DNA from: Amoebophrya sp. A120
Lineage: Eukaryota > Protista > Dinoflagellata
Length of the DNA stretch: 64,000 bases
NCBI GenBank assembly: GCA_905178155.1
Contig: CAJINV010000002.1
Span: forward strand, 12,766,387-12,830,386
Direction: 5' to 3'
The translations under genes were made by a program, and so were the position numbers. The notes under the pieces were generated by a model. The model did no database searches. It saw only the letters and a program-made list of their open reading frames with translations, and had not been told where the DNA came from. Below are positions 3,065-64,000 of the stretch, piece after piece (within the stretch, counting starts at the first letter, position 1; each line of letters begins with the position of its first letter).

Positions 3065-4553
3065 ATGGATGCGAGAGATGAAATTGACCGCCCAGCTGCT
3101 TCCAGCACCGCACTGGATTCCGACTCCAATCCTTCCGCAATTATCCCCGCTCGCACATCACAAGCGAAAACCGGTGTGCGCCAAGTCGGCGGGCGCCGCG
3201 TTCGGCAGGCGGGGTCCTCGACGAAGCGGGTTATTTTGGTGGATAAAAACCACGGAGCACACGACAAGAAGCGAGCTCTTGCCCAAGGTCTACAACAAGA
3301 ACTTCGCCGGGTCATTCAAAATGCCTCCAAGAACAACGGGGTCGTCCACGACGACCAGGTTGCGGTCGCCAAAAAGCTTCAAAAGATGCTGGGACTCAGT
3401 CCCCGTGTAGTCTTGCGACGCGACAAGCGGCTGGCAGCTGCGATCACTGCGCTTCTGTCTCTGCACTCCTGCGGTCGTGTTCTTGTACCCATGAACATCA
3501 TGCTACAGCCACCGGCCGTAGCTGCTGCCATGTCCTCCGCCTCCGCATCTTCAGCCCAGGGAACTACAAGCAGCGGCCGTGGACAACCAGGACAGGAGAA
3601 TGTTTCGGAGGAGAACCTCCTGCCCTTGCTGGATTTCTTGTTGGGCATGAGCAAGGATCGTGGGAAGAACGACCACATGGACACGTTCGAAAAGCTTCGC
3701 GAGCGGCTAAATGTGCGGAAAAACCTGCGGGACCACGGGGACGAGCGCCAAGGCTTTTTCAACCTGGTACTTGCCCACCTGGACGCGGTGCTTGAGTTCT
3801 TGGGCGTGCACCCCGCGTTTCGGTTCGCGAGAACAACAACTGGAAGTACAACCACGGAAAAGACCTGGAAGTACAACCTCGCAAGTTCGACCATGGAGAA
3901 ATATCAAATGTAAAAATGTATGGGTCTTGAGGAATGCAACTTGTGATGCTGCATTTGGATTCCATAAAAAATCTGTATTGCATGAGTACCAAAGGAAATG
4001 CAACTTTTGCTACACTGAGAAAGCATTTTTCATGCGGATTACGCATCAAGAAGCCCTGAAAAAATCTGTATTGCTAGGGTATGCATCACAGACATCATGG
4101 CTCATGCAAAACGTGCATGACAAGTGTCAGAATCTTCCAGACCCAGACATTTTTACAGTTGATAAGAAAATCAAAAGTACTACGGAGGGGCCGTTTGCCG
4201 TGTTGGTTGAAGACGCGGAGACCCGACGCGTCCGCCAGGCCTTCACCGCTTACCACCCCCCGGCCGTGACCGGCAAGCCGCGGAAGCCGTCCTCATACCA
4301 GCGGGCGTTGGCTAACAAAAAGGAGCCCGCGGACACCTCTGCCAGTGGTCACCTGGAGCAGCTCATCTCGCGCTGGCTGGAACGCATGCGGTTGAAAGTG
4401 GTGCACCCGCTCATCAACTTTGCGCAGGACTGGAAGGAATCGGCTATCGCGTGGGACCACCAGATCACATACGACCAGCCGCACCGCCTGTTTCAGAACT
4501 ATCGGGACGCTCTCCCGTATGACCCCTATTCACTATCAGCTCGATACTCATGA
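3065..4553 (+). CDS. Hypothetical protein, split by introner 3902-4164
   Basis: ORFs 3065-3913 and 3711-4553 join in frame (MEK|IKSTTEG) after removing the element plus one AGAAA. Confidence 0.65.
3902..4164. mobile_element. Introner, TIR family A (263 bp)
   Basis: TATCAAATGTAAAAATGTATGGGTCT...AGACCCAGACATTTTTACAGTTGATA; DR AGAAA/AGAAA. Confidence 0.92.
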
Positions 4554-5041
4554 TCCTGCTCCCGTGGAAGTTGACTTCTTCTGAACACAACGACCCATCA
4601 AGGAAGAATTCTTCAACAAAGTGCTGGCATGAAAGCTGCTGATGCGAGGAGGGTAGTCTTTACTTATTTCGGTAGTGCGTTCTTAGTTTGAACTTATTTC
4701 GGTAGTGCGTTGTTGTTTTCGGCACTGGCATTGTCAATAGCTACGCTGCTGCCTCTCCCTCTACGGAAGAGGCATGCGGTTTTTGTAGAGTTTTGACCAA
4801 CTACCTGAACTTTCGTGGGGCCTGTGCGTGGCTGGCGAGCGAATACTTCGACAAACCGCTGTCTATTATACAGAAAAAGGTAAAGAAGTAATGTCGTTGC
4901 ACAGTTAGTACGGAAACCTTGAAGAAGTTCAGAACCGCAATGACAACTAGTAGTTCCTGGTCCTCTTCTTGCATAGAACAGCGTATTTATTAACTTCCTG
5001 ACGCAAGAAAAGTACAACTGCCACAAATTTCGGTTGCATAT

Positions 5042-7986: not shown

Positions 7987-10900
7987 ATGGTTGTCCAAAC
8001 GGTTCCCGACCAGGGAAAGCAAGTGCAGCTCGCCGTTGGTGAGCAGCAGGTGGTGGAAAAGTCAGCCGGGCCGTCCTCTCCGCGGCGGTCGCTGTCGCCG
8101 AAATTTTCGCAGAAGAAGGCACGCATGCGGGAGTTCGACAAGATTGTGAAGTCCATGCCGAGCGCGCAGTGGATCTTGGAGACCGACGACTTTTTCGCCA
8201 AGAAGGTTGCGAAGCCGAAGTGGAACAACCAAGTGTCGTTGTTCGAGAACGTTTATGCATTGCAAAAGTATCGTACAAATCTCCTCAGCATGAGAAATAA
8301 AATTTGTCATGCGGATTTACCTTACGAAAAAAATTTGTAATGGCATGACTGCAAATCATACGAGTGCGATACTTTTCCTTTTGCTGAGGATAACGTGGGT
8401 TGTTGCGCGAACGGACGCAGTTACTTTGACCGCTTCCGGCCGCGGGCCAAGGACCACGCCAGCAAAACCGGAAACCTGAAGTCAACCTGGCTCATGGACA
8501 ATGTGGCTGACAACGAAAAGCATCTCATCGGCGGACCAAAACTGAAATCCCGTACACTTATAATTGACTTTACGTAGTTGGATTTGTAAAACAAGTTCAT
8601 CTGCGCGTGCTTTGCCTTGCCTCTTTTTTGTGCATCTAGTTCAGTTTTTCCTCTGCGGTTTTTTCATTTGAAGCAACATGTGCAAGGAGTCGGCGTGAAC
8701 ATGGTTCTCTGGTATTCATTACTGCTTCATTTCTTACAGCCGCGTGCAAGATCCTGTATTCGCACGTGCACCGAGTTCCGACGCCCCGGCAAAATTATTT
8801 GACGAAGCACGGTCTCATATTCTGAGTAAAGACGTCCCCACCCCATAGTTGTCATGCAATTCCGCATGCCAAAAAAGTTTCTCATGCAGAGCCCTATGCG
8901 AAGCATTTTCTATTCGTGTTTTGGAATTTGTGACGCTAGAGTCAGCATCTTATGCTAGATCTGTGATGCTTCTTCACTAGCTAAACAGGATTACGCTACG
9001 CGGACAAACTTGTCATGCCAAACAAGCAAAGCTGGCTGATTTGTCTAGCAGATTATCCATCTTGACTCTGGTGTGGGGACGTTTTTACTCAGGATATCTC
9101 ACGCCAGTGGTGTGTCCCGACGACCCGATTCCAAAGCCGGAGATCATCGCCGGGAGCGGGTACGTATCAACTGTAAAAATGTCTGGGTCTGGAAGAATCC
9201 AACTTGTCATGCTGATTTTGGATTCTAAAAAAATCTGTATTGCATGAGCAGCAAAGAGAGTCCAAGTTTTGCTGCACGGAAAGAGCATTTGTCATGCGGT
9301 ATAGGCATCAGAAAGCCCTCACAAAATCTGTGATGCTAGAGCATGCATCACAGACATCAGGAGTCATGCAAAATGTGCATGACAAACCAATAAACCTTCA
9401 CTAGATCGCATGCAAACAGGCCTCGGCACCTGTTTGCATATCGGTCGACGTGAGCACCGCGGCAGCATTAAGGTCAAAATGAAAACTAGGAATGAGATTC
9501 ATCGTAAGTTTAGTAGCCAAAATTCAATTCAGCGTCGGTTCGTGCACGAAGCCGACGCTGAATTGAAGCGTCGGTTCGTGCACGTGTGTCGCCCTTCGTT
9601 CGTTGCTTCCAGGAGCATGATCGCAAATTCGTACGCTCCTCCTGCTTTGAAAAAAAAAATCCGATCTTCCCGTCTGCCCCCATCTTCCCATGTAGAGTTA
9701 GGTCTCTGCCCTTTTATTGCTTCTCTCGTGTAGATGTGTTGTTGTTTTACCTGACTCGCCTTCTTAGCGCTAGCCCGCGTAGCCCGCGTCCTTGCAGGGG
9801 CAGCTGTTTTTTTTCCGCCTTGCCAGCGGGTTTTGTCGCGGGGAAGAAAGCAATCTGGGTTCAACGGTCCCCGCCCCCCCATCATCGTGGGTTCGACGGC
9901 CCCCGCCCCAAAGGAGACCACTTAGAAATATTTTTTTTGTAGAGTGCAAATTTTCACTGCGATCAACCGTTCACCATCGGCTGAAGCTGCACATGCATCC
10001 GGAGTAGTTTTGAAAAATTAACTTTATTGCCCGCGGCTTACGGGTTTCGTCTAAAGGTTCTTCGTCAGGGTGCGCGGTTTCTATTATTGGCGTTCGGCTT
10101 GGTCGCACCCTATGGCTAGTATCTGAGATCAGAAGACCATTTATTTCGGGGGACAGTAGCGCGCGAAAAAAGTTCGTCGCGGGGGCACCCCGCATGGTTC
10201 GTTTTTATATGCTTTCCGCACCATGCATCGATGGCCGGGGGTTCGGTCGTGTTTCCCGCTGGGCTTTTCAAACGCGGGTTTGCAAAGCCCGTTTGCATAG
10301 GGCGTTCCCAGTATCCGCGTTTACATAGATCCCGGATATCGCCCCCTATGGGCAACTATCTCCCTAGACAGTGGCTCCTCCCTATCTTTACTACCGTCAG
10401 GTGCAGCGGCTTTCTGCACATAGCGCCTAGTCTCGACCCATATCGACCCCCCTTGCTATTCGTCCCACAGCATAGCAACGTCCGCCGCGGCTTACGGCTA
10501 TAGACGTTAACTATATCGTGGGGATTTTCTATGCGTGTGTCCGGTCCGAGTTCGAAAAAGGGTTCAGGGGTGACCCCCCTGTATGCATGCGGATTTATGC
10601 TTCCGAAGGGTTTAGGGTTTTGATTTGTATGGACCAATGCGGCGCGCACATCGAGTTTCCTGGCAGTGTCGACCTGCTGTACACGGCGTAACCCCCGGCG
10701 GAAATAGACCGGAAAACGCATCTGAAACTGAAACTGAGCTTGATCTCGATGTTCTATCGACCACCGATGTCGACCTTTTGCAGTATGCACGCACAAACGA
10801 GATTTTCGAAAGCGGAGGGGGGGGGGAAGAGACCCCCATTTGGTTGTCGCGGCGCGAAGCCGCAAATCCTTGGGCCACGTCTACCACCAGAAGTATTCCG

Positions 10901-11188
10901 CCCGGGGGACGCCTCCAGTTCAGTTCAGTTCAGTTCAAAACAAACTGCCGCCATGTAAAAAAAAAAAAAAAATGTGCATGACAAACCTGGCAATCTTCCA
11001 GACCCAGACATTTTTACAGTTGATAATACGGCATGAAATACAACACGGTGGCGCACTCTGATTTCCGGGAGTACTTCGGTCACCACAAGCAACACCGCAC
11101 GTTGCAGCGAAGCGTGGAGGAGTCAAACAAGGCCCTGCAGCTCAACTCCCTCGAGAAGGCAGGACTCCGCCCGGAAAGAGTACATTGA
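7987..11188 (+). CDS. Hypothetical protein with three introners and one GT-AG intron (8552-8739)
   Basis: Reconstructed continuous frame FENV|GCCANG...LKS|PACKILY...KHGL|TPVVCP...GSGY|GMKYNT...ERVH*. Confidence 0.7.
8254..8392. mobile_element. Short introner (139 bp), family H
   Basis: TATGCATTGCAAAAGTATCGTAC...GTGCGATACTTTTCCTTTTGCTGAGGATA; DR ACGTT/ACGTG; internal TTGTCATGC. Confidence 0.75.
8818..9096. mobile_element. Introner, TIR family B (279 bp)
   Basis: TATTCTGAGTAAAGACGTCCCCAC...GTGGGGACGTTTTTACTCAGGATA; DR TCTCA/TCTCA; same TIR and length as 57005-57283. Confidence 0.9.
9165..11025. mobile_element. Introner family A expanded to 1861 bp by a nested retroposon
   Basis: TIR TATCAACTGTAAAAATGTCTGGGTCTGGAAGA and its reverse complement; DR GTACG/ATACG; 262 bp remain after subtracting the insert and one 19-bp TSD. 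Confidence 0.9.
9389..10968 (+). mobile_element. Poly(A)-tailed retroposed insert (~1580 bp, non-coding) with 19-bp TSD
   Basis: AAAATGTGCATGACAAACC at 9370-9388 and 10969-10987; A-run 10957-10972; (CAGTT)4 just upstream; no long ORF. Confidence 0.8.
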
Positions 11189-13175
11189 ATGATAAATTGA
11201 GTGAAGCAGGAATTTTTGCAAAGTCGTGCTCTTCGTGCTGCAAGGAGTGTGTCTACTTACAATGCTTGTGTTTTTGCTCGCTGTAGTGTCTTGGTCGTTC
11301 GATACTTTACAACTGCTCCTTTTGATGAAGCCTAAAAGTTATTCAGTGAATACTATTTCTAGCATCTTCGTAACGCTAGAACGCCAGACACGCAAAATTG
11401 TTTTTGAAATGAAACATCAGCTGCCATCGCGGAAGCGGCGGTTGGAAATGCGATACAGTCAATCGCAGCCGATGCTCACGTATCCTGCAAAAGAGCCTCG
11501 CACGCGCATTTCAGACTACTAGCGATGTCAAGAAGGGGCATGTGATGCTGACAGCTAGCGACAAACTTAGTCCGACTTATCTACGGTGAGCTGTTGTGTT
11601 TCAAATTCAATATCTTCTCTGCAGCATGAAACAAAGAGAATAAACAATCGAGTTTGATGTACTAATCCTAACCGCAGCTAATGCACCGAAATGCGTATGC
11701 GAGAAGAAAGTTTTGCGCTGCATACCGCCGGACCGCTGGGATACGAAAGTATGGATTCTAGCCTGCAAGGAACCATGTACAACACGGCCGAATGGACTCA
11801 GAAACTCGGCGGAGAGCACTGAGCACCGGCGTAGATGTTGCATGATTTTATTGTTCGTTTGCTTTTTCGTGATTGTGATTGAGATAGAGATTGCATTTTT
11901 GCGGCAACACGCACATACCGCATGTTGCGAACGTGCATGCTCCAGCTCACGCTACTGCTGTACAAAAAGTCTGAGTGCACATTCATTCGATAAATACGAT
12001 ATTTTACGCAAGATTTGCTTGTTGTTTTTCGTTTTTCACGCTTAATTTGATATTCTCTACACATTTCCTGTAATTTAGAAACATTGGATTTTTTTTCATA
12101 TCATAGAGAACCGGGAAAGTATTCTCAGTAGCTTTAGCTTTATACACATTGTGCACGTGCTATACCTGGATGCTATGTATTGCGCGCATTCCGAATTCAT
12201 TGTACAATATAGTTTTGGTGCTACTGTGGATCCTGATTTTATTTTGGTCTTGGGCACTAAGTGACCCCCTGTAGCAGTCGTCGGCTACAACATGATCGAC
12301 GCGCAAACTACAGTGCGATGTGTTCGAGCACCAACGATTAACTAGGAAATCCCATCTCCCACGAGGAGACAGCGATAAAAGTGATCCGCATCAACAACGC
12401 AAGATCATGACACACACTAAAAGTGTGGAAAAAGAATCTCAATGTTTGAAGATGTTGAACGCCCACCAGCAAAATAGAGGTGGAGCTTAAAGCCTGTAAA
12501 CTACGTATTTAGCTTAAGTGCTGCTCGACTCTAAGCTTTTATTCGCAGCTGATGCCTGAATCGTGTACCACCTGGTCCTGGTTCTATTATCCATCCTCTC
12601 AGTTCCTTTACTTTGTCGATACTTGATAGCAATTTTTATTTTTGTATAATTTTTACGGCGAGTGCTCTTTTTGCTAGTAGATCGGTCGCATTCCTGCTAT
12701 ATATTTGGTGTAGTTGTTATGACTTTCTAGAAACCTCCATGATGAGACCGGATCGCAACTAAAAAGTGTAGATGGGAAACAAGAGGCGAAGGCATCATGT
12801 TGAAGCGACGTGGACGACGGCGGGCGGCTGCACTGCCGCGTGACCTGAAAGGCCTCCAGCCTACCGCGGAGCCGTTGCTTTGAGCGATTCGCTTTTAGTG
12901 CTGCACGTTGTAGACGTAAAAGTTCGAGCCTGCTTGCCTTCCGATTGCCGATTCATCCTACTTTTGTTTTGGTCGCAACGACAGCACGGGCAACACCCCC
13001 CTCGAGCTCGCGAGTCCCGGGTACTTAGAAAATAGTTCGCTGCACTTGGAGCAGCAACGAAAACCGCAGCGCATCTTCTCTGTGCAAGTAGCACCACAGC
13101 TCCGGACGACAGGGACTTTAAAAAACGTTTGTTTGAACAAAAAGTTTCTTCATCCCGTGACACGCCTCCTTCAAG

Positions 13176-16100
13176 ATGAACGTTCACGAGATGGAAGCCA
13201 AGGATGGCATCCGCATGCCGTGGAACGTTTGGCCGCCAAACCGGCTGGGCATGCAGCGGATTCTGCTGCCTTTGGGGTGTATGTACACTCCCATCAAGCA
13301 GACTAATGAGCTGAAGCTCGTGCAGTACGATCCGGTGGTTTGCAACGGCGAGAATCGCCAGTGTGGAGCCATTTTCAATCCCTTCTGCTACATCGACCTC
13401 AGGTACTATATTACCCAGACGACGACAGCAGATGTTGATTGTATGAAAAATGTTTGATGAGAAGGTTTCTTTGTCGGAAACGACGTATTGGTGGTCTCCA
13501 ACAATCTTTTTTTGTTGCATTTTTCTAGCAGGCACCTTGAAAAAACAAAAAGCTGCTCGTGGTAGTATGATAAGGACACTTTTATCTTCAGGTCGAAGTG
13601 CTGGACGTGCAACTTTTGCGGGTGCCGAAATGCGCTGCCGGCATTCTATGCGGAACACATATCAGAGACGCAAAAACCGCAGGAGGCCATGTTTACGACT
13701 ATCGAATACCTGTTGCCAAATTCAGCCGTGCCGCCACCGGTAGGTTTTGTTTTAAAGTCCCTCCTCCTCTTTCCGAAACAAGAAAAGCAACATCAATAGA
13801 TATTTCCATGTTACATGAATGTTGTTCTGTAGGTCGTGGTAGGGTGCAGATGCTTTATAGCAATCAAAGCAGCGGGTTCGAACTTGGAGATGATCCGGTT
13901 CAGTTGTTCCGAATGCTCGCATTTGCACTCTGCGGAGAGTCGCCCCCTCGCGGCCACCGCGTCTATAGAGGTTGAAGAGACCTCCACCTAAAATACCATA
14001 CTACCCTGCAGGTTTTTCTGTTCGTACTGGACACCAGTTTGAACAACTCGGAGGACGAACCGGAGTTCGAGAAGGCGAAGGAAACGCTGCAGCAGGTGAT
14101 GCAAAGTATCAAATGCAAATATGTCTGAGTCTGGAAACTTGTGATGCTGGCTGGACAGTCTTGAGGACGTCCCGATTGGTGGCCACGCATGACAAGTGTT
14201 TGAGCTGCTATGTGTTGCCTGTTCTGCATGGCAAACCGCGTTTCCGCACGACAGAAAACTTGGATACTTGCCTAACGCGCATGACAGACTTGAGAGTCAT
14301 GCTAGCCGAGCATGACAAACTCTGCATTCTTCCAGACCCAGACATATTTGCAATGCATACAAACTATGCCGGTGACAAGTTTGGTCGGGTTCATCACCTT
14401 TGGCACGCTGGTAAACGTGCACGAGCTCGGGTTCCAGGAACTCAGCAAGAGCTACGCCTTCCGGGGCACCAAGGGGTACAACGCACAGCAAGTCGCCCAG
14501 CAACTCGGCCTTCCAGCAAGAATGGACCCGAGAGGAAACACTGCTGGTACGTAACGCTGGTTTTAAAGAGTTGGCAATCTGTGATTGCTGGGGCGGTACT
14601 TGAGCTTCGCGGTTGCGGTGTGATAGATTCTTGCATAACTCTTGCACGCGTTACTGCGCTTTTTCAGAACTCGCTCCAGACAGTGCGGGCATCTTGGTCC
14701 AATTGAAGGTTTTTCTATGAAGACAGGATCACCACGACGTGGGCATGAAAATGAATGATCTTGGTCTCCTCGGAATAAACTACAACTAGCATATTGAAAA
14801 GTAATTTTGACACCGAAAAACAGCCCGATCGCGGTTTCTGTTGCCGATTTCCGAATGCGAATTTAGTCTAAACTCTGTTTTGGACGACCTGCAGCGGGAT
14901 AGGTGGCCTACGCAAACGCGAGACGTCCGCTGCACCAGGTGTACCGGCGCTGCACTTTCCGTCGCAATAGGATTGCTGGAGTGCACGTAAGCAGATGAAT
15001 TTTCACAGCTGCATCACCATGGACCTTCATGTTATAGTTCTGGTCGGAGATGATGATTCATTATAGTCGTGTTATTACTGTTACTCGAACTCGTATCCAA
15101 TTTGAACTTTCTAAGGCACGTAGAAGTGCCTATTTATTGCAGAATTTATTGCGTTCGTCATTCTGTCTCGGAAAGTTTTGAATATAGATCACGGAAACTG
15201 AAAACAGATACGCGAACCAGGCGGGAAGGGTTGTTTTGCTCTCGTCCGGCCCCTGCACCGTGGGGCCCGGTCAGATTGTAGCACAAGACAAGGCCGAAGT
15301 CATGCGTTCGCACCAGGACCTGCAGAAGGAAAGACCAAACACAAAGTAATTAATGATTCTAGTAGCAGCGAATCAGTTGCAGTTCATTTTCGATCAGAGT
15401 CGATACAGCTCCCACTTGAATTCCAGCTTTGTGACTGCGCATTTCTAACCGCTCTTTCAGAAGTAGATAAAGGGATGATTCTTGTTCATTCAACTACAAT
15501 TTGCTTGCCTGTCCCTGCGCACTTGTGCTGTTCTTTTGACGCCGGCCACTCCCACATTTCACAGGCACACGAAACCCGCCATCCAATTCTATGCGGGCCT
15601 CGCAAGCCGGGCAGTAGCGTCTGGGCACGCGGTCGACATTTTTGCGAGCAGTTTGGACCAGATTGGAACGCACGAGATGCGAGTATTGTGCGATCGAACG
15701 GGTTATCAAATGCAAAAATGTCTGGGTCTGGAAGAGTGTAAACTTGTCATGCAGGTTTTTCATGACCCATGAGGTCTGGAATGCGGGACCTAGCATGACA
15801 GAGTCTGTGAGGTTTCTTCCATGCCTATCCTGCATGAGAAACTCCCTCCAAAATTGGTCGAAAGTGGACAGGTTTTGGCACTCATGCAACACAGATTTCT
15901 GCATGATTCGGATTTAGCATGACAAGTTGCGATCTTCCAGACCCAGACATTTTTGCAATCCATAAGGGTGGGACCCTGGTGATGGCCGACGGTTACTCAA
16001 CACACGTGTTTCGTGACAGTTTTAAAAAACTTTTCGAGACCGTCGACGAGTCAGGTATTTCCTACTTCACACTGCTATATCATTAACTCGCAAACAAGTT

Positions 16101-17971
16101 TCTGAATCTGTCCCGGTGTAGTCTGGACAATGGCCGATTGCGAAGATTTCGTTCTTCCAACGGGCGGGACGACCGCGCACAATGCTGATAGGGAACAATC
16201 AAGAACTTTTCGTTGAACCAACCCGGGGCGTCACCACCCGGAATTAAATCGTGGACCACCACCGCATGTTCAACAATTATCCCTCAGGTTTCCTGCAGAT
16301 GGGGTTCAACGCGAACATAAAGGCCGTGTGTTCCCGTGAGTTCAAGATTAGCGGTTGCGTGGGCCCCTGCTGCGGCACGCAGAAGAAGAACAAATCGGTG
16401 GGCGAGACTGAGATCGGGGAGTCGGGCACCATCGAGTGGCGCATGGGGGTGATGGACCCCACCACCACGCTCGCGTTCTTTTTCGAGATCGCCGGCGACC
16501 TGTCGCAGAACGGCGGCCAGGCCATGGGCCAGAACGCGGCGTATCTGCAGTTCCAAACGCTGTACCACCATCCCTCCGGGGTCAAGCGCCTCCGCGTCAC
16601 CACCGTCGCCCGGGCTTTCGCGGACCCGCAGCTGACCAACATCGCGCACGGGTTCGACCAAGAGGCCGCCGCGACCGTGATGAGCCGGAACGTGATGTTT
16701 CAGCTCGAGGGCAGCGAGATGAGCGACGTGCTGCGGAGGATGGACCGGATCCTGATCCGCCTCATCTCCAAGTTCGCCAGCTACAACAAGGACGACGTGT
16801 CCTCGTTTCAGCTTACCGAAGAATTCACCCTGTTCCCCCAATTCATGTATGACAGTGTTTTCTCGCTTGCTTGCTATTGCTACTTGCTATTTGTTACTTT
16901 GGAAGATCATTCTCAATGGTCATGGTGATGGTCTGCCCGCTTCGCGCTTCATCTCCATCGAGCTGTATGAGTTTCTTTTCCCGTAAGTGCGCATTTCATT
17001 GTTCTACTCATGCGCACTCTGATCGTGCAGCCGTAAAGTATTGTGATGTGTACAACTATGAATTTCAGGTACTACCTGCGACGATCCCCGTTTTTAGATT
17101 TTTTCAACACGTCCCCCGACGAGTCCGCCTTTTACCGCACCTGCCTGCTCCGGGCCACCACCTGCCAGTCCCTTGTCATGCTCCAGCCCGCACTCCTGTG
17201 TTACACCCTAGACGACCCCCACCCCCGACCCGTATTTGACCTGTTGGATTAAGTAACCTCAAATGCTGACCTTGATCTTGATTTTTGGAGCCGGGGTCGA
17301 CTTTCTCATATCCACTTTCTCGAGAGATTTAGCATCGGTGTGAAAGAATACAAATGAACTATCACCAGGTACTCCTCGATGCCGCAAGTTTGAAAAAGGA
17401 CATTATCCTGATGATGGACAGCTTCTTTTTCGTGCTCATATGGCGAGGGCAACAGATTCAGCAATGGTACAGTTTTTTTGGACGCTGAATAGTAGTTTTC
17501 CGCAGTGAGCGTATGGGAACGAGCTTCTCAATCAGCTGCAGCCGGCTAGACTAGTTCGAAGCATCGTGAGAACAGGAAAATTTGGTTCTTTTGCGAATCC
17601 GGTTTGGCTTGAGAGATTCCAGTTCTTTAATATCCTTCAGGTATGACGCGAAATACCACGAGCAGGAGGAGTTTGCGCATCTGAAGGAGCTTTTGGTCGC
17701 TCCTACTGTCGACGTGAAGAACATTCTTGCCGAGCGGTTTCCGTCGCCAAAATTTATCCAGACCGCGGAGGGCGGCTCACAGGCACGCTTTCTGATGAAC
17801 AGGGTCAACCCGAGCCGAACGCACACGAAGGTGGATACCGACGACGGTCAGGGTTGGGGCGGCGTCCGAGGCGGCGGTAACCCGCAACAGGAAAGTTCCA
17901 TCGTGCTCACGGACGACGTCAGTTTGAAAACTTTCATGCAAGCCCTGATTCGCTACGCTGTGGCTAGTTAG
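13176..17971 (+). CDS. SEC23: COPII coat subunit Sec23 (multi-exon, two introners)
   Basis: [11 protein letters not shown], Zn finger ([10 protein letters not shown]), [44 protein letters not shown] and GGSQARFL motifs. Confidence 0.96.
14107..14359. mobile_element. Introner family A (253 bp) in SEC23
   Basis: Family A TIR; DR CAAAG/CAAAC; removal gives QVMQ(T/S)[13 protein letters not shown]. Confidence 0.92.
15704..15964. mobile_element. Introner family A (261 bp) in SEC23
   Basis: Family A TIR; DR CGGGT/AGGGT; removal gives [13 protein letters not shown]; interior closely similar to 41952-42213. Confidence 0.92.
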
Positions 17972-52845: not shown

Positions 52846-52892
52846 TTTGATGAAAAATCTCAACAGTTATTAAATTACACAGCTTTATCCGG

Positions 52893-54298: not shown

Positions 54299-55996
54299 AG
54301 TTTCGACGTGTCCCCTTAAGCCTTAATTCAGTATTGATTCTTGACATTGTCCTTGGTGTTATCTCGTTAAAGCCACGACCGCGGGCCGAACGGGGCCCTA
54401 AAGTTGACCCACCTGTTGCAGCGACAGCAAGCGGCCCTGTCTCCGTTCCAATATCTTTCATTGCAGAGTACCTAACTCACGTAGGGTAAATTTTTCCGAT
54501 GCGCAAGCTTCAGCTCAAAAATTAATTTGTTCGCAGCTTTGCGTTTGTCTGCTCCCTGCTACCCGAACTATACAACAAATTGAAACGCGCCTGATTGATG
54601 GAGTACTTGTTAAAGGAGCTGGCGCATTGTAGAGTGATCGAGTGAATCTCATTCTCATAATGGAGCAAAGAGAGAAATACTTAAATCAAAGTTGAATGTC
54701 GACCACGAAGTATGAACAACAAATAAGAGAACGGCCGAGGAGAAAGGGTCATGAACTTGATTCGGCAAAGCGTGTGTCTCTTTCATGAATGAGTCCGCAT
54801 TGGTGGAGCGCGACGAGCGAGATCTTTCTGATGTACGTCATTGACGAATTCACTTGAATGTCGTGATTGCGTTGTAGTTGCGCCTTGTGACACTTCATTT
54901 TTTGCTACTTCACGACTTCCGGAATGTGTGAGTCTGATCCATGGAGCAAACGAAGTTTGGACGAAGATAGGAGACATACTTATCTAGAAGAAGGTATCAG
55001 TAGTACAACCTCCTTGCCACGACTCGTACTACTTTAGCACTGCATATTCCACCGAACCATTGTAAAGTCTTGCCGGCCGGGCATCACCACCACATAGTTT
55101 CTTCGATCAACTTGGATGCGCAAAAGTTCGAGATTGGGGTGCGGTGCTGCCCCCAAGAATCATTGCACCAAGCACTTTTCCCTGCAGCCTCGTCCGTCGA
55201 GCTGCGGCACTCAGAAGTAAACCAACGGGTAATATCGCAGGGCTGGATTTTTTCCAGGTGCTGCTACGCTGCACGAAGGATCTTACGGCATCGGGGTCCG
55301 GGAGCTCACAACGAACAAAGTAGGGTGGAAGAAGTGCCTAGGGTGGTTTCGTACAAATACTCAGGGTGCTTGCGTAGAACACAGAACCCAAAAACAGCGC
55401 ATCACTTCGGGAAAAAACGCACACTTATCAATCTCTACGGAATAAAGTTGCAGCTCTGCTTTCCTGAGGTATCGTGTCGTGGAGTGCCGGAAAACTTCAC
55501 TCTCGGCCGTGTGGAATCTGGACCGTGACACGGGCGAGAAGCGCGAATTTCCCCCCCTGCTGTAGTACAACACGTTCGTGCGTCTCGTAACATTACGGAG
55601 GCTCAGGTCGATTGCTGTGCGTCGCGGTGTGAAAATAGTCAGTGGGTGTCCTTTTTGTGACCGGATCCTGACGAGCACGAGCGAATTCGATTCCACTGCA
55701 GGCGAGACGTGTTACTACACTCCTAGCACCAGATCTTCGACGAACCTGGTGTAGCACCAGTACGCGACCATCGCCTACTTGCCTCGACTCCAGCGAGAAA
55801 TCGAAATACTTACATATACAAGCTACGAAGTTCTTCAAAGTCAACGCAACGCGCGGTGCGGGGTGAACCCATTTCTGCCGCACCGGTAGTGTTCGCTGTA
55901 CTGTCCTTCGGTAGAAACTTTTTGGCCACTACCCAGGGAGCAGCAAGATGGCGGGCGTGGAGAACATGCGCACCATCCAGCGTGCAAAAACGCAGG

Positions 55997-58900
55997 ATGG
56001 ACTCAAGTCCCCGGTATTCTCATCGTCCGGTGGACCAAAAAACGTTGACAGGGAGACAGCAGAGTACTTGTTCGATAGTTCGAGTTTGGAGCTGCCGTAG
56101 TTTCGATCATCAGATTTATAATTTGCGTGTCGCTGCGGCTCCGGTTGCTGGGCTGCAAGAATAGATTTTTCGTGAACAATTGTCACATCATCATTGAACA
56201 TGAAAACGAAAAATGCATTTGAATGCAGGTATTTGTCGTACCTTCGGGCAGCGACGCAGCGGGTTTTGCTGGATGAGACGCTCAAGATCGACACGGCAGA
56301 CTATTACGAGGAAAACAGTCTTTTCGCAAGAATCGCAGCAGACTCGAGGTAAGAAACCCATGCAGGACGAAAAGAATTCTTGTTTGGGAGTAGAACATTA
56401 TGCATGGTCGGTTTTTTTCTGTTGGGTCGTGCTGTGCGAGGATACATACAAATTTTTCATAGACTACCACTTCAGTAGCAAACAGAGCATTATGTATGAT
56501 CGTGTTGGGCCCACATCATGCTGTCAGCAACAGTACAAAAGCAGCGACATGGGCAAGGAGCAACGAAAACTTGGCTGTCCGAAATTCACGCAGACATGAC
56601 GAAAAAGCGCGCAACGGTCAGCGACTGCCTTGATCGAAATCTTTGGCGGCAAATTACAAAGGGAGCGCAAAAAGGCTCCCAACAACAAACAGCAAGCAGC
56701 GTCAGCATTTCTTCCGCTGCGTCCTTCCAAGAGCAAAATATTCCTATTCAGCAAATGCGAAGACTCCAGGGACGAAAAAGAATAGGAGTGAATCGCACAG
56801 GGACAATCTAAGGCTTAGAGTCGAACAGATTCAAATCATCATGTATGATCGTGTTGCTTCTGAGAAAGACTGTTATTGTTTCTCGACAACAGTCAATGTA
56901 CATCAACATCTATTCTTGCAGGTTCGATAACTTCACGCTTTTTGTGATTGTGCTGAACGCGGCCTGGATAGGGGTGGACACGGAGATAAACACAGCGCCG
57001 GATATATCCTGAGTAAAAACGTACCCACACCAGAGTTGTAATGCAGATTTGCAAAGACAGGAAGACTGGTAATGCGCATCCCCATGAGAGCCATTTCCAA
57101 TCGTGTTTTGGAATTTGTGACGCTGTGAACAGGATGAGCAGACGAATCTGTGATGCGGCTGCACTTGCTAACCTGCACTACACTGCATAGCGCAACTTGT
57201 CATGCGGGACTCACAAAGCTCCTAGGTTTGTGTTGCAAAATCCCCTTCCTGACCCTGGTGTGGGTACGTTTTTACTCAGGATAGGATATATCACGCTACG
57301 ACACGGCAAGCGTCATGATCGAGAACCTGTTTTGCTACTACTTCACAATAGAAGTTATCGTACGCTTCAACGCCTTCAAGTACGCCTGCAACTGCATCAA
57401 GGACTTTTGGTATCGCTTTACATATCATTCTGGCATTCATCAACGTGATGGAATGTAGCATTGAGCATTGCAGTTTTTCTTCTTGTTTGAGCATTGACAG
57501 TAAAGAAAACAACGGTTTTTGCGTCTTCATCTTCATCTTCTTCCTTCATCAGTGGCAGCACTGTTGAAAGTCTCCCAATCCAGGCGATTATGAGCGGCCT
57601 GAGAGGTCGAAAAAGGGAACTCTCTGGCGATAACGTCGAACAGAATGCATTCATCAAAGAGAACGGTTCTTGGGAATGTCTATGTCAATCTGAATCTATT
57701 TATACCCTATCAAGGTTCCGCTTCGACGCTTTCCTCGTGTCGCTGATGATAGTGGAGACGTGGCTTATGCCGTTAATCGGCGGCGGCGGCAATTTGTCCA
57801 CCTTGGCCATTTTGCGTCTCTTGCGTCTCGCCCGGCTCACAAGAATGGTCCGAATCATGCGATCTGTGCCTGAACTCCTCACACTGATTAAAGGTACACA
57901 AAATCGAAATCGTCCTGTTGAAGTTGAAGTTGATTGTGGAAAAAAATATAATATGTTTGTGCAGCAGGAGGTAGATTTTGCCGGGGGCTAGTTCGTTGCT
58001 AGGCTATGCGTTTTGCTTGAAAATAAATGATGTATCTATGACAGAAACATCACCGCTAACTCGCAGGTATGGTACGTGCAACAAAATCGGTGGCGTCAAC
58101 TCTTACACTGCTGATCATATTCCTCTATGTGTTATCCGAGATGAAAAGCGTGCTCGTGCAACGTACTTTTCTCATGTTATGAACCATACGTGCCGCGAGG
58201 CGGAGACGTCTGTCATCTAGCTAGCTGGAATTTATTGTATTCTTTGATGATTTTGTTCCCTCCCAACGATGATCTATGTCGAACATAGATAGGACCAGCA
58301 AATTATCATCGGAGACGCGGGTCGTACGACGACCTGTGCCACAAAAGATTTTTTTGTCATGCGTACCTACTCACCGGCTCCGTCAAGTGGACAGTCTATA
58401 CCTTGCTTTCCTGCTTGGAAAGCCCGTAGGTATTAGGAAGTTTCTGTTGCGCACTTTTTCATTCCGATACCGTTTTGGGCTTGTGTTTGCCATGCAGTAC
58501 AAGGACGAGTCGGTAGATGACAACAACCTCGAGGTGTTTGGGAACATTGGAGAGTCGATATTACAGGGAAAAATGCCCCCACCCCCAAATTTGCAGTAAT
58601 TTGTGATGCGAAGTTTCCAAATGAAAACTTTTTGTCATGCATGAAAGGAATATGAATCTTTGACTTTGTGACGCAGAGTCTAGGCGTATATAGCATTGCT
58701 TGCATGACAAGCGCCGCTCTTGCTGGGATCTTTTGTAATACAAATTTTCGCTATTCGTATTCACGATTGGACAGCTGTGATGCTGATAGATGCAAGAGGG
58801 CGAATGTTTCACTTGGAAAGGTTTGCAATACAAATGCTCCCAAGTTCGGGGATGGGGGCATTTTTCATTGTAATAGTCGATGTTCGCGCTCTTCATTGGC

Positions 58901-60954
58901 GGGACTCTGCTTGATGACTTGACGGCCTTCACGAATATCATCCGGGAATCAAAACAGCCAGCGATGCTGATAGCATGGTAACCACAATATAACTATGTCT
59001 ACTATGATTGAATGGTGAAATAGAATAGCGATAGCTCTCTCTCCTTTCTGCTTGTTGTGTTACAGTTCAAATGCAGGTCCTCGCTCTTCACAATTACAGT
59101 TTCAGCTTTGCCTTTATGACAGTAGCACACGCAGACCGACACAAAAAGTTTCGAAGCACGAAGAACAATTGTGTGAATAAGAATAGCGTACAAAAACCTC
59201 CGCGGTCCCTAGGTACCTCTTCGTGCTCTTATCTTCCTTCACGGTGCTCAACATGCTTATCGGTGTGCTGTGCGAGGTGGTGACGCAAACCGCGGAGGCG
59301 GAGCAGCAAAAGATGGTAATTGGTCAGGTTGGGTCGACCATGGTGGAGGTGTTTGCCGAGGTGGACGAGGATCGCTCCGGCTTGATTTCCGCGTCGGAGT
59401 TCGTAGGACAGTTGCACAACTCCCCCTCCCCCTCATTTGTCATGCAAAATACCCAATGCCAATCCACACACACACTTTGCCTCTTGGCACTGTTTGCATG
59501 GTGACAAGTTTTGGTAGCCCAAATAGCACCACAATCCAGTGCAAATTTGTCATGCAAAACCGGCATTCTTGCTGATGCTTGTGTTGCCGTTTATGCCATA
59601 CAAATGAGGGGAAGAGGGAGTTGTGCACTGTCATAGTTCGAGCTGATGAAGCAGAACGACAAGGTGACCGCTGCGCTTGAGCTGCTCGCGATCCAGAAAT
59701 CGCACCTGGTAGCACTCGCGGACTCGGTCTTCGGCGACCCGGCCGGGGGCGAGGGCGGAACCGGGCGGGAAGTCAGCTTCACAGAGTTTCTAGAAATGGT
59801 ATTGTAATATAATCTTCTGTAAGTTTTAGAAGTATAGTTATTCGACGTTTCACTTCCGTTCAGGTTTGGACGCTATTTCGGGGACCCTGCAAATGCGGCT
59901 CGAATTCGAAAGCAAATGCTTAGCTTTCGATGCAAAAAGAAAAATTGCCGGGGAAATACACATTATCTGTATCTCTACCTGCAGGCAATTCACCTGCGAC
60001 CCGAGAACCTGGCAACCGTGCTGGACGTGATTGAGTTGAGGAATGTAATGGGCGCGTACAAAAAGCTATCAAATGCAAAAATGTCTGGGTCTGGAAGAGT
60101 CATGCTGTTTTTGCATGACACAGAAGGTCTGGCATGGAAGCTCTAGCATCACAGTTCTCCAGAAGATTCCGCAATGCCGAATCCGCATCACAAATCCCCC
60201 ATTTAGGTGACAGAAAGTTGGCAGCTTTTGCCGCCTACGCATGGGAAATTTTTCTGTGTTCTGAAATGCGCATCACAAGTTCCTCCAGACCCAGACATAT
60301 TTGCATTGCATAAAAGCGGTTGGAGAACAAAGTCCTGGACTTCGAGGCGAGCGTGATGAGGGAAGTCTTCCGCAAAGGCATGGGCGTGCTGGACAATGGG
60401 CCCTCATTAGAAGACTACGATGACCTCATGGAGGTGAGGGAAAAGGCAGGGCGGGCAACAAGGTGCTGCTTTATTTTTACGAAGGAACAACAACATTGAC
60501 TTCAACTACTTCAGCACTTAAGACAACCAGTTCTGACCTACTCCTAGTCAATGGAAAGCATGGATTAAGATTCTTTTGTTGGAAAGATATAGATGTTCTT
60601 CGGGCCTACTTTCACTTCGCAACAAAAAAAATTATCTGTACTAAATCTACTCCGCCCAACAACTACAGGTTGATGCAAATGCTCGATAACGACTACTACG
60701 CCACCAAGCGACAGCTAGACGACCTGAAACGCGCGAAGGAGGCACACCAGATGCTGCTGGGGCGGGGGAAGATCGCGCGGATGATTTACAAGTTTTTGCA
60801 CGTGGCAGAGAAGATCAGTCTGAAGATCTTCGGGCCGGCCATCGACAAGATGCAGGGTCTGGACGAATACACGGAGCAGATCAAGAGCAAACTCAAGAAG
60901 AAGGAGGAGGCACCCCCGCAAACCGCCGACATCGCCCAGGGATCGAGTTCCTAG
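55997..60954 (+). CDS. Single-domain 6TM voltage-gated cation channel with EF-hand (start uncertain); five introners and several GT-AG introns
   Basis: S1 FDNFTLFVIVLNAAWIG, S4 LRLLRLARLTRMVRIMR, S5 LYVFGLVF, pore SMFALFIGGTLLDD, S6 LNMLIGVLCE and EF-hand DEDRSGLISASEF. Confidence 0.85.
56508..56840 (+). mobile_element. 5'-truncated RTE-like LINE fragment (333 bp) in a canonical intron, 16-bp TSD
   Basis: TSD ATGTATGATCGTGTTG at 56492-56507 and 56841-56856; encodes KTWLSEIHADM...DRNLWR, resembling the RTE ORF C-terminus; ATC-type tail. Confidence 0.75.
57005..57283. mobile_element. Introner family B (279 bp)
   Basis: TATCCTGAGTAAAAACGTACCCACACCAG perfect TIR; DR GGATA/GGATA; frame restored (TAPD|ISRY). 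Confidence 0.93.
58133..58469. mobile_element. Degenerate introner (337 bp)
   Basis: TATCCGAGATGAAAAGCGTGC...GCACTTTTTCATTCCGATA; flanks TGTGT/CCGTT; element+5 nt yields S5 helix IFLYV|FGLVF. Confidence 0.7.
58559..58875. mobile_element. Introner family F (317 bp)
   Basis: TATTACAGGGAAAAATGCCCCCAC...GGGGGCATTTTTCATTGTAATA; DR GTCGA/GTCGA; closely similar to 63375-63681. Confidence 0.93.
59404..59635. mobile_element. Introner family G (232 bp)
   Basis: TAGGACAGTTGCACAACTCCCCCTCCCCCTCATTTGT...ACAAATGAGGGGAAGAGGGAGTTGTGCACTGTCATA; DR GTTCG/GTTCG; sits right after the EF-hand loop. Confidence 0.9.
60067..60312. mobile_element. Introner family A (246 bp)
   Basis: Family A TIR; DR AAAGC/AAAGC; frame restored (AYKK|RLENK). 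Confidence 0.92.
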
Positions 60955-62862
60955 AAGAAGCGGTTTGTACTTGCTCCAGGATTATCTTCGATCCTGTCTC
61001 AGTAGCCAAAAAGAAAAGTACTGGACAGGTCGTTGGATGTCCGTGAAAATTCCGGGAAGCAGAGGGTGCTTTAGCGGCCGTCGCGCACCGCGACCGCCTG
61101 TGCTAGATCTTACACTATACAACGATGGTCCTGTATGAGTTAAAGTTGCTTATGAAGTTTGACAGAAAGCTACCATACATCCAATTTCAAAGTAGTATCA
61201 AACCAACAAGATGATTTTTTTTTCGCAATACGAGGAGGAACGCTGTGATTTTAAAAGCAGTGCAAGTTCAGAGCAGGAGAAGGGAACTAGAACTGAAAGC
61301 CGTTTTATGTAAAAATTGTATCCAAATGCAGTACAGCAAATGCAACTGTCTAAACAGTATCTGAGCACAGGAAGAACTTCCAGTGCAGCTGCCAATGAGC
61401 TTCTGTTTACTTTTTGATTCAGAACAGTACTGAGATCTCCTCTTTTTCTCGGGCTAAAGGAAAAAGCGCCATCAACGCTGTCCGCGCAACTGTCAAAGCC
61501 TCGGATTCACAAACATGCGAAATAAAATTCGTGAGTAAGTACTAACTTGACTTCAAGCGACGGTGACAGGATCTGACCGTTGCGCAGGAACAGGATATGT
61601 TTGTCCTCGAGCTTTACAACTACCTTGTACGAACACTTAATACAATTCTCACAACTTCAAAAATTGTGGGAAGCAATGAAGGTGTGACAGGGCTCCTTCT
61701 TTTTAACACAGCAGGAGATTCGAGATTCATCTTTCACAACAAACAATATGTTATGATACACACTACAAGACGCTAGAGGTAGGCCTGTCTCATCGCGTCC
61801 GCCACAACTTTCCGATATAATTTGCTGAACTTGTTCGAGGGACCGAAGAAACGTCACTGTCAACCATCCCTCCGTGTATCAACAAAAATGGCTCGTCCCG
61901 AGAAGAACCTTGTAGTCTGTCGTTGCATTACCCGATGAATTAGAACCGCCTACCGCCTCCGCCCCTATTTAGAGGTCCGTCGCTGCGTAAAAATCTCCAG
62001 CAGCCTGTTACAACTTGAGGTTGATTGAACAAAAGGGTGTCGTTTTCGTACTTCCCTCTCAGTGTTCCTTCGGTGAGGAACGTCAGGACTTTCTGTTGCG
62101 ATGTAGAACGCAGCTCTCTAGTTGATTTATTCGCATATGTTGCTCTGCTGGCCGCTTGCAGTCGGCTTTCGCTTTTGTAACGTTTTGGCATATTTTATTC
62201 ATCGTGGCAGTTCGTCGGCAGTACAATGTCCTGGGTCATCAACGTAAAAGAGAAGTTGCACTCTTGATCTGCAACTTTTAGGAGCACGCAGAAAGAAAAA
62301 AAGTATTTGAACAAACTAGCACAGGGATGCACGCGAACCAGATCCACCCAGATGTCTTTAGCGCGCCACAAATCTTCACACGCAAATTAGTAAATACCCT
62401 TTTATCATCTTCAAGAACGAAGACGATCTTGATGACTTTTGCAAATAGCACGGCTCGTTGTTGGACACTGAATAGAAGGATCTTGGTTGAGGTATCAAAA
62501 GCCGGTCTGTCAAACTGATCCCGCCCAGCTTGTTGCCTATCCCTTCATAGCTCGCAAAGTGCCGAACTACTTAGAACTGATTTCTGCACTGATCAACTGC
62601 AGTTTTGGAAAGAGAAGCAAAGGTTCCAAAAGTACACTGGCCGTCAAATATTGAATTTCAATTTTGAATACAGCGACTTAGAAGACCTAGTTGTAGGTGT
62701 ACTAGTCGATGAAATTGAAGCTGTCCCACTTCTTCATCTACACCAGCAGCTGTCTATCGATGTAAGGAGTAGAATGTGCTGGTAACAATTTCTTTCGTGT
62801 TTGTCTACTTTGTGAATTGAAAAAAAAAAGATTTTTACCTAAGATCTTTACTCGCCATAAAA

Positions 62863-64000
62863 ATGTCAGACGGCGGGCGCGACTTGTCCCTGTCGCGGAG
62901 CGCCAAGAACGAAGAGCTATCCTCGTCGGACGTGGAAAACAAGCAGAAGGCCCCCTCCGCCGCGGAAGAGGACCCCGCGCCGGCGGAAAAGGTTACCGCG
63001 AACGGCCATCATGAGGATGAAAAACCCGCGACCAAGCCCGCGGTGGTGTTGGCGCCTGGGGTCGATTATGGATTGCAAATATGTCTGGGTCTGGAAACAT
63101 GTAATGCTGAAAGTGAATCATAGACGCACTGCAATACGCAGCTATGCATGACAATTTTTTTGACTGCCATGTCTTACGTATTCCGCATGGCAAACTGTGT
63201 TTTTGCGCGACAGGTAAGAGGGCCTTTTCGTGCCTATGCAACACAGAGTCTTGAGTCATGCCAGACAAGCATGACAAGTCTCGCAATCTTCCAGACCCAG
63301 ACATTTTTGCATTTGATATCGATCCTGAGGTGATGGCAATCGCGCTGTCCTGGAACAAAACGGACGAAATTGGGTATTACAGTGAAAAATGCCCCCACCC
63401 CCAAATTTGCAATAATTTGTGATGCGAAGTTTCGAAATGAGAACTTTTTGTCATGCATGAAAGGAACATGAATCTTTATGATGCAGAGTCTAGGCGTATA
63501 TAGCGTTGCTTGCATGACAAGCGCCACTCTTGCTGGGATCTTTTGCAATACAAGTTTTCGCTATTCATCACGTTGGACATCTGTGATGCTGGTAGATGCA
63601 AGAGGGCGAGTGTTTCACTTGGAAAGGTTTGCAATACAAAGACTCCCGAGTTCGGGGGTGGGGGCATTTTTCATTGTAATATTGGGAACGACCGGCTGCA
63701 AGCGCGGGAAATGTGGTACAAGTGGGCGAACGCCAACGGCAAAATCTCCGCGGCCTTCGGGGACGTGTGGTATCAAATGCAAAAATGTCTGGGTCTGGAA
63801 ACTTGTGATGCTGGGTGGCGTATCATGATGAGGCCACAAGTGCTGGCCCAGCATGACAAGTTTCTGAGCTTCTAGGTGTTACCTATTCTGCATGACAAAC
63901 TGCGTTCCTGCATGACAGAAAAATGGAGCGGTTGGGTAACGTGCATGACAGATTCAAGAGTCATGCCAGACAAGCATGACAAACATGCATTCTTCCAGAC
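62863..64000 (+). CDS. Hypothetical protein, 3' part outside window; three introners within its first ~115 codons
   Basis: Frame APGVD|PEVMAIALSWNKTDEIG|NDRLQAREMWYKW...GDVW| is continuous after removals. Confidence 0.65.
63067..63318. mobile_element. Introner family A (252 bp)
   Basis: Family A TIR; DR TCGAT/TCGAT. Confidence 0.93.
63375..63681. mobile_element. Introner family F (307 bp)
   Basis: Family F TIR; DR TTGGG/TTGGG. Confidence 0.93.
63771..64000. mobile_element. Introner family A, truncated by window end
   Basis: Left TIR TATCAAATGCAAAAATGTCTGGGTCTGGAA; interior like 23495-23747; right TIR begins (TTCCAGAC) at the window edge; predicted DR TGTGG. Confidence 0.88.

What the first reader, a model, noticed from the sequence alone, without database searches (positions are those of the whole stretch)
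3897..64000. Mass invasion of coding exons by TIR transposon-like elements that must be removed precisely without GT-AG signals (non-canonical introner system)
Seen: ~29 elements with TAT...ATA ends, TIRs and a 5-bp flanking DR of arbitrary sequence (AGAAA, TCTCA, CGTGG, TGACG, TTGCC, CTGCA, GACCA, ACAGC, CGAGA, TGGTT, GGATA, GTCGA, GTTCG, AAAGC, TCGAT, TTGGG...). They interrupt housekeeping genes (SEC23, PSMB2, thiolase, NIF phosphatase) whose exons are otherwise intact. Removing element plus one DR restores frame and conserved motifs. No single junction register gives GT..AG across copies, although ordinary GT-AG introns occur in the same genes. Established: TIR plus TSD is DNA-transposon (MITE) architecture, and IR/DR-bearing non-canonical introners have been reported in Amoebophrya, with, to my knowledge, no resolved removal mechanism. 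Inference: a second excision pathway reads the TIR stem or ends, either at RNA level or by IES-like DNA excision.
Basis: partly seen in the sequence, partly recalled or inferred. Interest (0 to 1): 0.93.

Follow-up and report, generated by a model that had tools for sequence, protein, structure and literature searches.

The report
Amoebophrya introners cut at fixed offset
These are the already published transposon-derived, non-GT-AG introns of the marine parasite Amoebophrya A120: RNA-like sequencing contigs lack them exactly, and the copies that can be read all fit one cut position, which likely points to a relaxed spliceosome and makes the unsolved removal mechanism easier to test.

Summary
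The window is Amoebophrya sp. A120 DNA. It holds 27 complete TAT...ATA elements, one cut by the window end and two doubtful ones. They match the introner elements of Farhat 2021 and the '5-bp TSD, TA/TA termini' TIR class of Gozashti 2025. RNA-like contigs skip element+5 nt at 6 of 6 sites tested; annotated proteins require it at 9 of 9 more. DNA-like contigs keep the elements, so removal is at RNA level.

What I add: copies with eroded repeats all fit one register, with the cut 1 nt before TAT and 4 nt after ATA. The direct repeat is dispensable (0/5 identity at 38000). That register gives N-T-A, matching +2/+3 of this genome's GTA donors (28 of 30). I found no selection for +1 G or 3' AG, and no G-U bias in the stems. 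The likely mechanism is a relaxed, U1-less spliceosome (0.55); the rival is an endonuclease/ligase. This scan noted similar introns in other genomes.

The parts
3902..4164 (.). Introner, main family, DR AGAAA (perfect)
   Evidence: frame open 132/128 codons after removing +5
8254..8392 (.). Short introner, DR ACGTT/ACGTG; needs k>=1
   Evidence: RNA-like contigs skip 144 nt
8818..9096 (.). Introner, DR TCTCA
   Evidence: skip of 284 nt
9165..11025 (.). Main-family introner stretched to 1861 nt by a nested insertion; DR GTACG/ATACG
   Evidence: skip of 1866 nt in 4 of 4 runs
9389..10968 (.). Nested insertion with a 19-bp duplication and a poly-A end (retroposon-like, inferred)
   Evidence: sequence; no Pfam hit for its longest ORF
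11481..11724 (.). Degenerate introner, DR TCACG/CCGCC (2/5); allows k=1 or 2 only
   Evidence: skip of 249 nt, 1 nt ambiguity
13176..17971 (+). SEC23 gene, 9 GT-AG introns and 2 introners
   Evidence: modelled middle part of 950 nt equals the RNA-like contig
14107..14359 (.). Introner in SEC23, DR CAAAG/CAAAC; needs k>=1
   Evidence: skip of 258 nt
15704..15964 (.). Introner in SEC23, DR CGGGT/AGGGT; needs k<=4
   Evidence: skip of 266 nt
23190..23405 (.). Introner, DR GGTCA; the only one with a possible GT-AG register (k=4)
23495..23747 (.). Introner, DR CGTGG
24571..24827 (.). Introner, DR TGACG
26787..27036 (.). Introner, DR TTGCC
28988..29196 (.). Element with DR GGAAG in no evident reading frame
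31196..31517 (.). Introner in thiolase, DR CTGCA
37242..37549 (.). Introner, DR GACCA
   Evidence: annotated protein P0005 needs 313 nt removed
38000..38285 (.). Old introner with no DR left (AATGG/CGCAA); single placement 37999-38289, k=1
   Evidence: P0005 reads WWNEWVHY
41952..42213 (.). Introner, DR ACAGC
43379..45029 (+). Proteasome beta-2 gene, 2 GT-AG introns and 2 degenerate introners
   Evidence: P0001, 100% identity
43460..43657 (.). Degenerate introner, DR CCCAT/CTCGC; allows k=0 or 1
   Evidence: His conserved in P0001-P0004
44525..44884 (.). Degenerate introner ending ACA, DR GCTGC/GCTGA; needs k>=1
   Evidence: Thr in P0001, P0003, P0004
48851..49104 (.). Introner in NIF phosphatase, DR CGAGA
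49156..49409 (.). Introner in NIF phosphatase, DR TGGTT
55948..60954 (+). Ion-channel gene (PF00520) with 5 introners and 7 GT-AG introns
   Evidence: P0006
57005..57283 (.). Introner, DR GGATA
   Evidence: 284 nt
58133..58469 (.). Old introner, DR 1/5 (TGTGT/CCGTT); needs k<=2
   Evidence: 342 nt; same residues in A25 orthologue P0007
58559..58875 (.). Introner, DR GTCGA
   Evidence: 322 nt
59404..59635 (.). Introner starting TAG, DR GTTCG
   Evidence: 237 nt
60067..60312 (.). Introner, DR AAAGC
   Evidence: 251 nt
63067..63318 (.). Introner, DR TCGAT
63375..63681 (.). Introner, DR TTGGG
63771..64000 (.). Main-family introner cut by the window end

Best explanation
These are the Amoebophrya A120 introner elements: non-autonomous DNA transposons with TAT...ATA inverted ends and a 5-bp target duplication, missing together with exactly 5 flanking bases from RNA-like contigs, and likely removed from pre-mRNA by a relaxed spliceosome that likely cuts one base before TAT and four bases after ATA. 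Shown: the architecture, removal of element+5 nt, retention in DNA, both orientations, and that the repeat is dispensable. Inferred: one register (k=1) for all copies; the 5' cut is read as N/UA like the genome's G/UA donors; the inner stem (pairs 9-30) holds the ends together; the 3' cut is counted from the [CG]AUA end and needs no AG; mobilisation is by an integrase-like (Ginger-like) transposase not seen here.
For: Identity: 100%, 100% and 96% matches to proteins named Amoebophrya sp. A120; the ends fit Farhat's A120 motif TAT-N7-AAA. Removal: 6 of 6 joints, 9 of 9 protein junctions. Register (k = bases of the upstream repeat inside the intron): 38000 k=1 only; 11481 k=1-2; 43460 k=0-1; 58133 k<=2; 8254, 14107 and 44525 k>=1; 9165 and 15704 k<=4. 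k=1 is the only value all nine allow. For the spliceosome: k=1 puts TA at +2/+3, and 28 of 30 canonical donors here are GTA with little information beyond +3. Farhat's top A120 classes all start N-T, and A25 classes start TT with a TTA repeat, again x-T-A. Nearly all spliceosomal proteins are present and U1 snRNA is undetected. Amoebophrya sp. Kv has U1 and canonical introns. The U2 spliceosome removes TIR-derived non-canonical introns in Fritillaria.
Against: No enrichment of G at +1 (56 seen, 56.2 expected) or of AG at the 3' end (16 vs 15.4) in 167 oriented copies; a shared active site preferring GT-AG should leave one. No G-U over A-C excess in the stems (125 vs 122, 180 copies), so selection on RNA pairing is not shown. 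No fixed branch-point position in 30 canonical introns. The only single-value register comes from an annotated protein, not from reads, and happens to give GT. A codon-score test of register on metagenome copies was inconclusive (k1 over k2 7 of 8, p=0.07; k1 over k4 9 of 14). Farhat's Fig. 3 legend calls the splice sites variable relative to the hairpin. The four RNA-like runs are guessed to be RNA and come from 2 samples of 1 study.
Confidence: 0.55

Rival explanations
1. The same elements are removed from RNA by a spliceosome-independent endonuclease and ligase that measures from the hairpin ends (1 nt 5', 4 nt 3'), as proposed for euglenid nonconventional introns.
For: Both splice sites are blind to sequence. 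Elements work in both orientations (90 vs 81 of 194). They fold into long stems (z -3.1 and -4.5). A 1.86-kb copy is still removed exactly. Euglenid introns with TIR-like ends leave as circles by an unknown route.
Against: The register coincides with the canonical donor's +2/+3 in A120 and, from Farhat's tables, in A25. Position 4 is C or G on each arm yet unpaired in 64 of 194 copies, and there is no G-U bias. Both suggest the ends are read as sequence. No such enzyme was looked for.
Confidence: 0.3
2. The elements are excised from DNA, like ciliate IESs, in the transcribing life stage.
For: TIR plus target duplication is DNA-transposon architecture. Only one DNA-like run was laid, and contigs drop rare variants.
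Against: DNA-like contigs run into or through the elements without branching, e.g. 11000-14133 holds the whole 11481 element. A low-depth contig of an RNA-like run still holds that element. Four of four informative copies exclude the mirror register k=4, so the cut follows transcription direction. No separate germline nucleus is known in this organism (my knowledge), so excision would be inherited.
Confidence: 0.04
3. The joints are reverse-transcriptase template switches at repeats flanking a hairpin, and the genes are broken or spliced at nearby GT-AG sites.
For: Hairpin plus direct repeat is the classic setting for such artefacts (my knowledge).
Against: Removal occurs with 2/5 repeat identity in RNA-like contigs (11481) and with 0-2/5 in proteins. 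The junction residues are conserved in relatives. Only 1 of 29 window copies and 13 of 132 oriented copies have any GT/GC-AG register.
Confidence: 0.02

Closest known systems
Introner elements (IEs) of Amoebophrya sp. A120 (Farhat et al. 2021, PMC7789003)
   Same: Same organism; IR starting TAT, seven variable bases, then AAA; 3-5 nt DR; about 240 nt; mixed with canonical introns; RNA-seq-supported removal; tens of thousands of copies.
   Different: Nothing in kind. The paper's text calls the splice sites variable relative to the hairpin. Here one register fits nine informative copies, the duplication is strictly 5 bp, and the repeat is dispensable. Its figures (Fig. 3, S19-S25) were not visible to me and may already show part of this.
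A120 TIR-DNA introner families, incl. fam38 'Ginger; 5-bp TSD, TA/TA termini' (Gozashti et al. 2025, PMC12130899, Dataset sd07)
   Same: TA/TA termini, 5-bp TSD, 200-330 nt TIR elements, mostly non-canonical annotated ends.
   Different: fam38 is about 810 nt with Copia/Gypsy-like ORF homology; no such element was found in the window or in 159 fetched loci.
MITE-derived non-canonical introns of Fritillaria borealis (U2 spliceosome; bioRxiv 10.1101/2025.08.15.670264)
   Same: TIR transposons turned into non-GT-AG introns on a genome scale.
   Different: There the splice sites are preferred dinucleotides (AG-AC, AG-AT) and U1 is conserved; here both ends lie in the arbitrary target duplication and U1 is undetected.
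Euglenid nonconventional introns (PMC12501133, PMC11282704)
   Same: Paired ends offset from the junctions, TSD-like repeats, unknown machinery.
   Different: A CAG/CTG core and release as circles there; TAT/ATA ends here, and the excised form is unknown.

Membership tests
Amoebophrya A120 introner elements (Farhat 2021) | Located in the A120 genome | tested here: met
   window exons match proteins named A120
Amoebophrya A120 introner elements (Farhat 2021) | IR begins TAT, 7 variable bases, then 3 or more A | tested here: met
   positions 11-13 are A in 87-94% of arms of 303 elements (TAT itself was required by the scan)
Amoebophrya A120 introner elements (Farhat 2021) | 3-5 nt direct repeat at the exon-intron boundary | tested here: met
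   262 of 378 repeat-blind calls have an exact 5-bp DR; 2 of 4 bp; none of 6 or 7 bp
Amoebophrya A120 introner elements (Farhat 2021) | Absent from transcripts, with non-GT-AG ends | tested here: met
   6 of 6; 1 of 29 with a canonical register
Amoebophrya A120 introner elements (Farhat 2021) | Repeated in families across the genome | tested here: met
   21 of 28 short window candidates have relatives (77-95% best identity) in the fetched loci
MITE / non-autonomous TIR DNA transposon | TIRs, fixed-length TSD of free sequence, no ORF, either orientation | tested here: met
MITE / non-autonomous TIR DNA transposon | Empty orthologous site proving insertion and duplication | tested here: inconclusive
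   Relatives' proteins are colinear across junctions, but no orthologous DNA was obtained
Ginger-type (integrase-like) DNA transposon | Autonomous copy with an integrase-related transposase between the same TIRs | tested here: inconclusive
   No genome held; 3 long elements in the loci, the longest ORF without a Pfam hit; Gozashti 2025 report homology for fam38 but say it lacks Ginger termini
Canonical U2 (GT-AG) intron | GT/GC at the 5' end and AG at the 3' end | tested here: not met
Spliceosome-removed intron (any ends) | Lariat intermediate and dependence on U2/U5/U6 | not testable with these tools
   No raw reads of this organism covered the window
Ciliate-type IES (DNA elimination) | Element absent from a somatic DNA form | tested here: not met
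   one DNA-like run only

The most novel reading that the evidence does not exclude
Amoebophrya A120 removes tens of thousands of transposon insertions from mRNA with a ruler-type machine that ignores both splice-site dinucleotides and the target repeat and cuts 1 nt before TAT and 4 nt after ATA. It would be a non-spliceosomal endonuclease-ligase that makes any insertion of these transposons harmless, in either orientation and at any site.
Probability: 0.3. Interest if true: 0.85.

Novelty: already known. Interest (0 to 1): 0.33.

Why it matters
The system is published, so the discovery value is low. How these introns are removed is still open in the papers I could search. A fixed register with a dispensable repeat turns that into specific predictions: the exact ends of the excised RNA, a candidate branch A at -7 or -5, and the +2U/+3A requirement. 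If it holds genome-wide it would also let the ambiguous intron borders of the A120 annotation be set by rule.

Tried and rejected
Whole-genome search for a transposase: no genome is held. TIR pattern in viral contigs: 0 hits. Long TIR elements in the window and 159 metagenome loci: 3 found, and the one 238-aa ORF has no Pfam hit. Raw RNA reads X9 and X10: 2 reads each laid, so no information; no listed holder is on record as RNA. Orthologous empty sites in the metagenome loci: none, only element matches. Selection for +1 G or 3' AG: none; an apparent excess vanished once codon position was controlled. G-U versus A-C test: no signal. Codon-score test of register: inconclusive. Fixed branch-point spacing in canonical introns: no clear peak; AT starts within -10..-6 in 16 of 30 against 33% background. 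Pairing 38000-38235 rejected because the frame is not restored. Candidates 5359-5652 and 35627-35875 left doubtful. A 2026 review of non-canonical splicing had no mention of Amoebophrya or introners.
Full report
Observation. A scan for TAT...ATA elements with TIR >=12/20 and DR >=4/5 gave 20 calls against a mean of 0.8 in 30 resampled sequences; with TIR >=15 and a perfect DR, 15 against 0. An end profile, RNA joints and protein alignments added degenerate copies. The final list is 27 complete supported elements, one cut by the window end (63771) and two doubtful (5359, 35627). One early pairing (38000-38235) was wrong; the element ends at 38285. Host genes Sec23, proteasome beta-2, thiolase and NIF phosphatase are confirmed by Pfam.

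Identity. Three window exons match proteins named Amoebophrya sp. A120 at 100%, 100% and 96%. Farhat et al. 2021 (PMC7789003) describe A120 introner elements whose IR starts TAT, has seven variable bases and then AAA, with 3-5 nt DRs and 29,850 repeated introns. Gozashti et al. 2025 (PMC12130899) list 58 A120 families, many TIR-DNA, and annotate fam38 as 'Ginger, 5-bp TSD, TA/TA termini'. The finding is therefore a known system in its known host.

Architecture on a larger set. One end pattern retrieved 159 loci (593 kb, overlapping) from metagenome contigs, all with accession prefix JACKZZ01. A repeat-blind call on these and the window gave 378 elements: 262 with an exact 5-bp DR, 2 with 4 bp, none with 6 or 7; the 75 with fewer than 4 of 5 matches include many mis-paired inner TATs. 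Lengths+5 are even modulo 3 (102/98/103). The end consensus is TAT[CG]NNNTGYAAAA. An internal motif (TGT[CG]ATGC and variants) occurs at 15.3 per kb inside elements against 1.3 outside and points inward from both ends. Of 63 elements with coding-like flanks on both sides, 18 had discordant strand calls; 38 of the other 45 keep frame after removing element+5. Among imperfect-DR copies with coding-like flanks 24 of 26 do. Elements lie both ways in genes (90, 81, 23 unclear, of 194).

Removal is at RNA level. Contigs of four RNA-like runs (kind guessed; 2 samples, 1 study) show 14 joints in 7780-16400: 8 GT-AG introns and 6 of 6 elements, each skipping element+5 nt, including the 1861-nt nested copy. 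Annotated A120 proteins need element+5 removed at 9 of 9 further elements, and relatives have the same residues there. The other 12 supported elements rest on architecture and open frames only; 28988 has no evident frame. A DNA-like run (flat depth about 45; possibly the source of the assembly) runs into or through the elements without branching. One low-depth contig in an RNA-like run still holds the 11481 element. Raw RNA reads from 2026 did not cover the window.

Register. Let k be the number of upstream repeat bases inside the intron. From RNA joints: 8254 k>=1, 14107 k=1-5, 9165 and 15704 k<=4, 11481 k=1-2. From proteins: 43460 k=0-1, 44525 k>=1, 58133 k<=2, 38000 k=1 only. I predicted Glu for k=1 at 38000 before fetching P0005, and it reads WWNEW. 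k=1 is the only value allowed by all nine. The intron is then N-TAT[CG]...[CG]ATA-NNNN. The repeat is dispensable: identity is 0/5 at 38000, 1/5 at 58133, 2/5 at 11481 and 43460. Caveats: the protein cases rely on a transcript-based annotation; nine copies is a small sample; an independent codon-score test was inconclusive.

Mechanism. No canonical signal hides in any register: 1 of 29 window candidates and 13 of 132 oriented copies have GT/GC-AG anywhere. After codon-position control, G at +1 (56 vs 56.2) and AG at the 3' end (16 vs 15.4) are at chance in 167 copies. For the spliceosome: k=1 places the invariant TA at +2/+3, and 28 of 30 canonical donors in the window are GTA (20 verified by RNA or protein, 10 predicted by eye). 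Farhat's top A120 classes all start N-T, and A25's start TT with a TTA repeat. The spliceosome is nearly complete but U1 snRNA is undetected, whereas Amoebophrya sp. Kv has U1 and canonical introns. From my knowledge, the +1 G and the 3' AG dock on each other in the second step, so losing both together and counting the 3' site by distance is coherent. Against it: the lack of any canonical bias, and no fixed branch spacing in canonical introns. On the stem: elements fold well, but G-U and A-C mismatches are equal (125 vs 122 in 180 oriented copies), and position 4 is C-C or G-G in 64 of 194. The outer end looks read as sequence on each arm, by the transposase, the splicing machinery or both; this test cannot tell which. 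I put a relaxed spliceosome at 0.55, an endonuclease/ligase at 0.3, DNA excision at 0.04 and artefact at 0.02.

Mobilisation. No transposase was found: no genome is held, viral contigs gave no hit, and three long elements gave one 238-aa ORF without a Pfam match. A 5-bp duplication fits an integrase-like enzyme (my knowledge), as Gozashti suggest for fam38.

Literature seen. PMC7789003: abstract, passages, sections 10, 11, 12, 16, supplement passages and part 3 (Tables S4-S6); figures not seen, and Fig. 3 and S19-S25 may already show the register. PMC12130899: passages, supplement search (files 13 and 14 not searched), file 8 parts 15 and 17 (part 16 not read). PMC11282704, PMC12501133, PMC12005148: passages. 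bioRxiv 10.1101/2025.08.15.670264: introduction and one passage; its supplements are closed. PMC13149111: term search, no hits. Roy 2023, Henriet 2019 and Guminska 2021: known only as cited in these papers. My claim that the mechanism and fixed register are not in print rests on searches of an open-licence library that lacks most subscription journals.

Verdict. Real, already known. Interest 0.33, for the fixed register and dispensable repeat, which make an open question testable.

Noticed in passing
window 9389-10968: A 1.58-kb insertion inside the 9165 introner, with a 19-bp duplication and a poly-A end, like a non-LTR retroposon; the host element is still removed exactly.
   Followed up: partly
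elements in window and L001-L159: A shared internal octamer (TGT[CG]ATGC and variants), 12-fold enriched and pointing inward, occurs in families with unrelated TIR interiors; a likely transposase- or splicing-factor binding site.
   Followed up: partly
L001-L159 and window, 194 oriented copies: Insertion phase at k=1 is uneven (89/42/63, p=0.0002); it may be a bias of my frame calls.
   Followed up: no
window 52873-54340: Tandem array of about nine 166-169 bp units, 97% alike, between genes.
   Followed up: no
window 32416-32568 and 56689-56841: A 153-bp repeat at 99% identity; the second copy lies in a GT-AG intron and seems flanked by a duplicated stretch, so it may be another mobile element.
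   Followed up: no
window 35627-35875: TAT...ATA element with TIR 18/20 but no 5-bp repeat, just after a stop codon; possibly another family.
   Followed up: partly
whole window: All genes I modelled lie on the + strand, as in the unidirectional clusters reported for this genome. Canonical donors are almost only GTA with little information beyond +3.
   Followed up: partly
L001-L159 (contigs JACKZZ01...): A metagenome assembly carries the same element families (best identities 77-95%), so A120 or a close relative is in it.
   Followed up: partly
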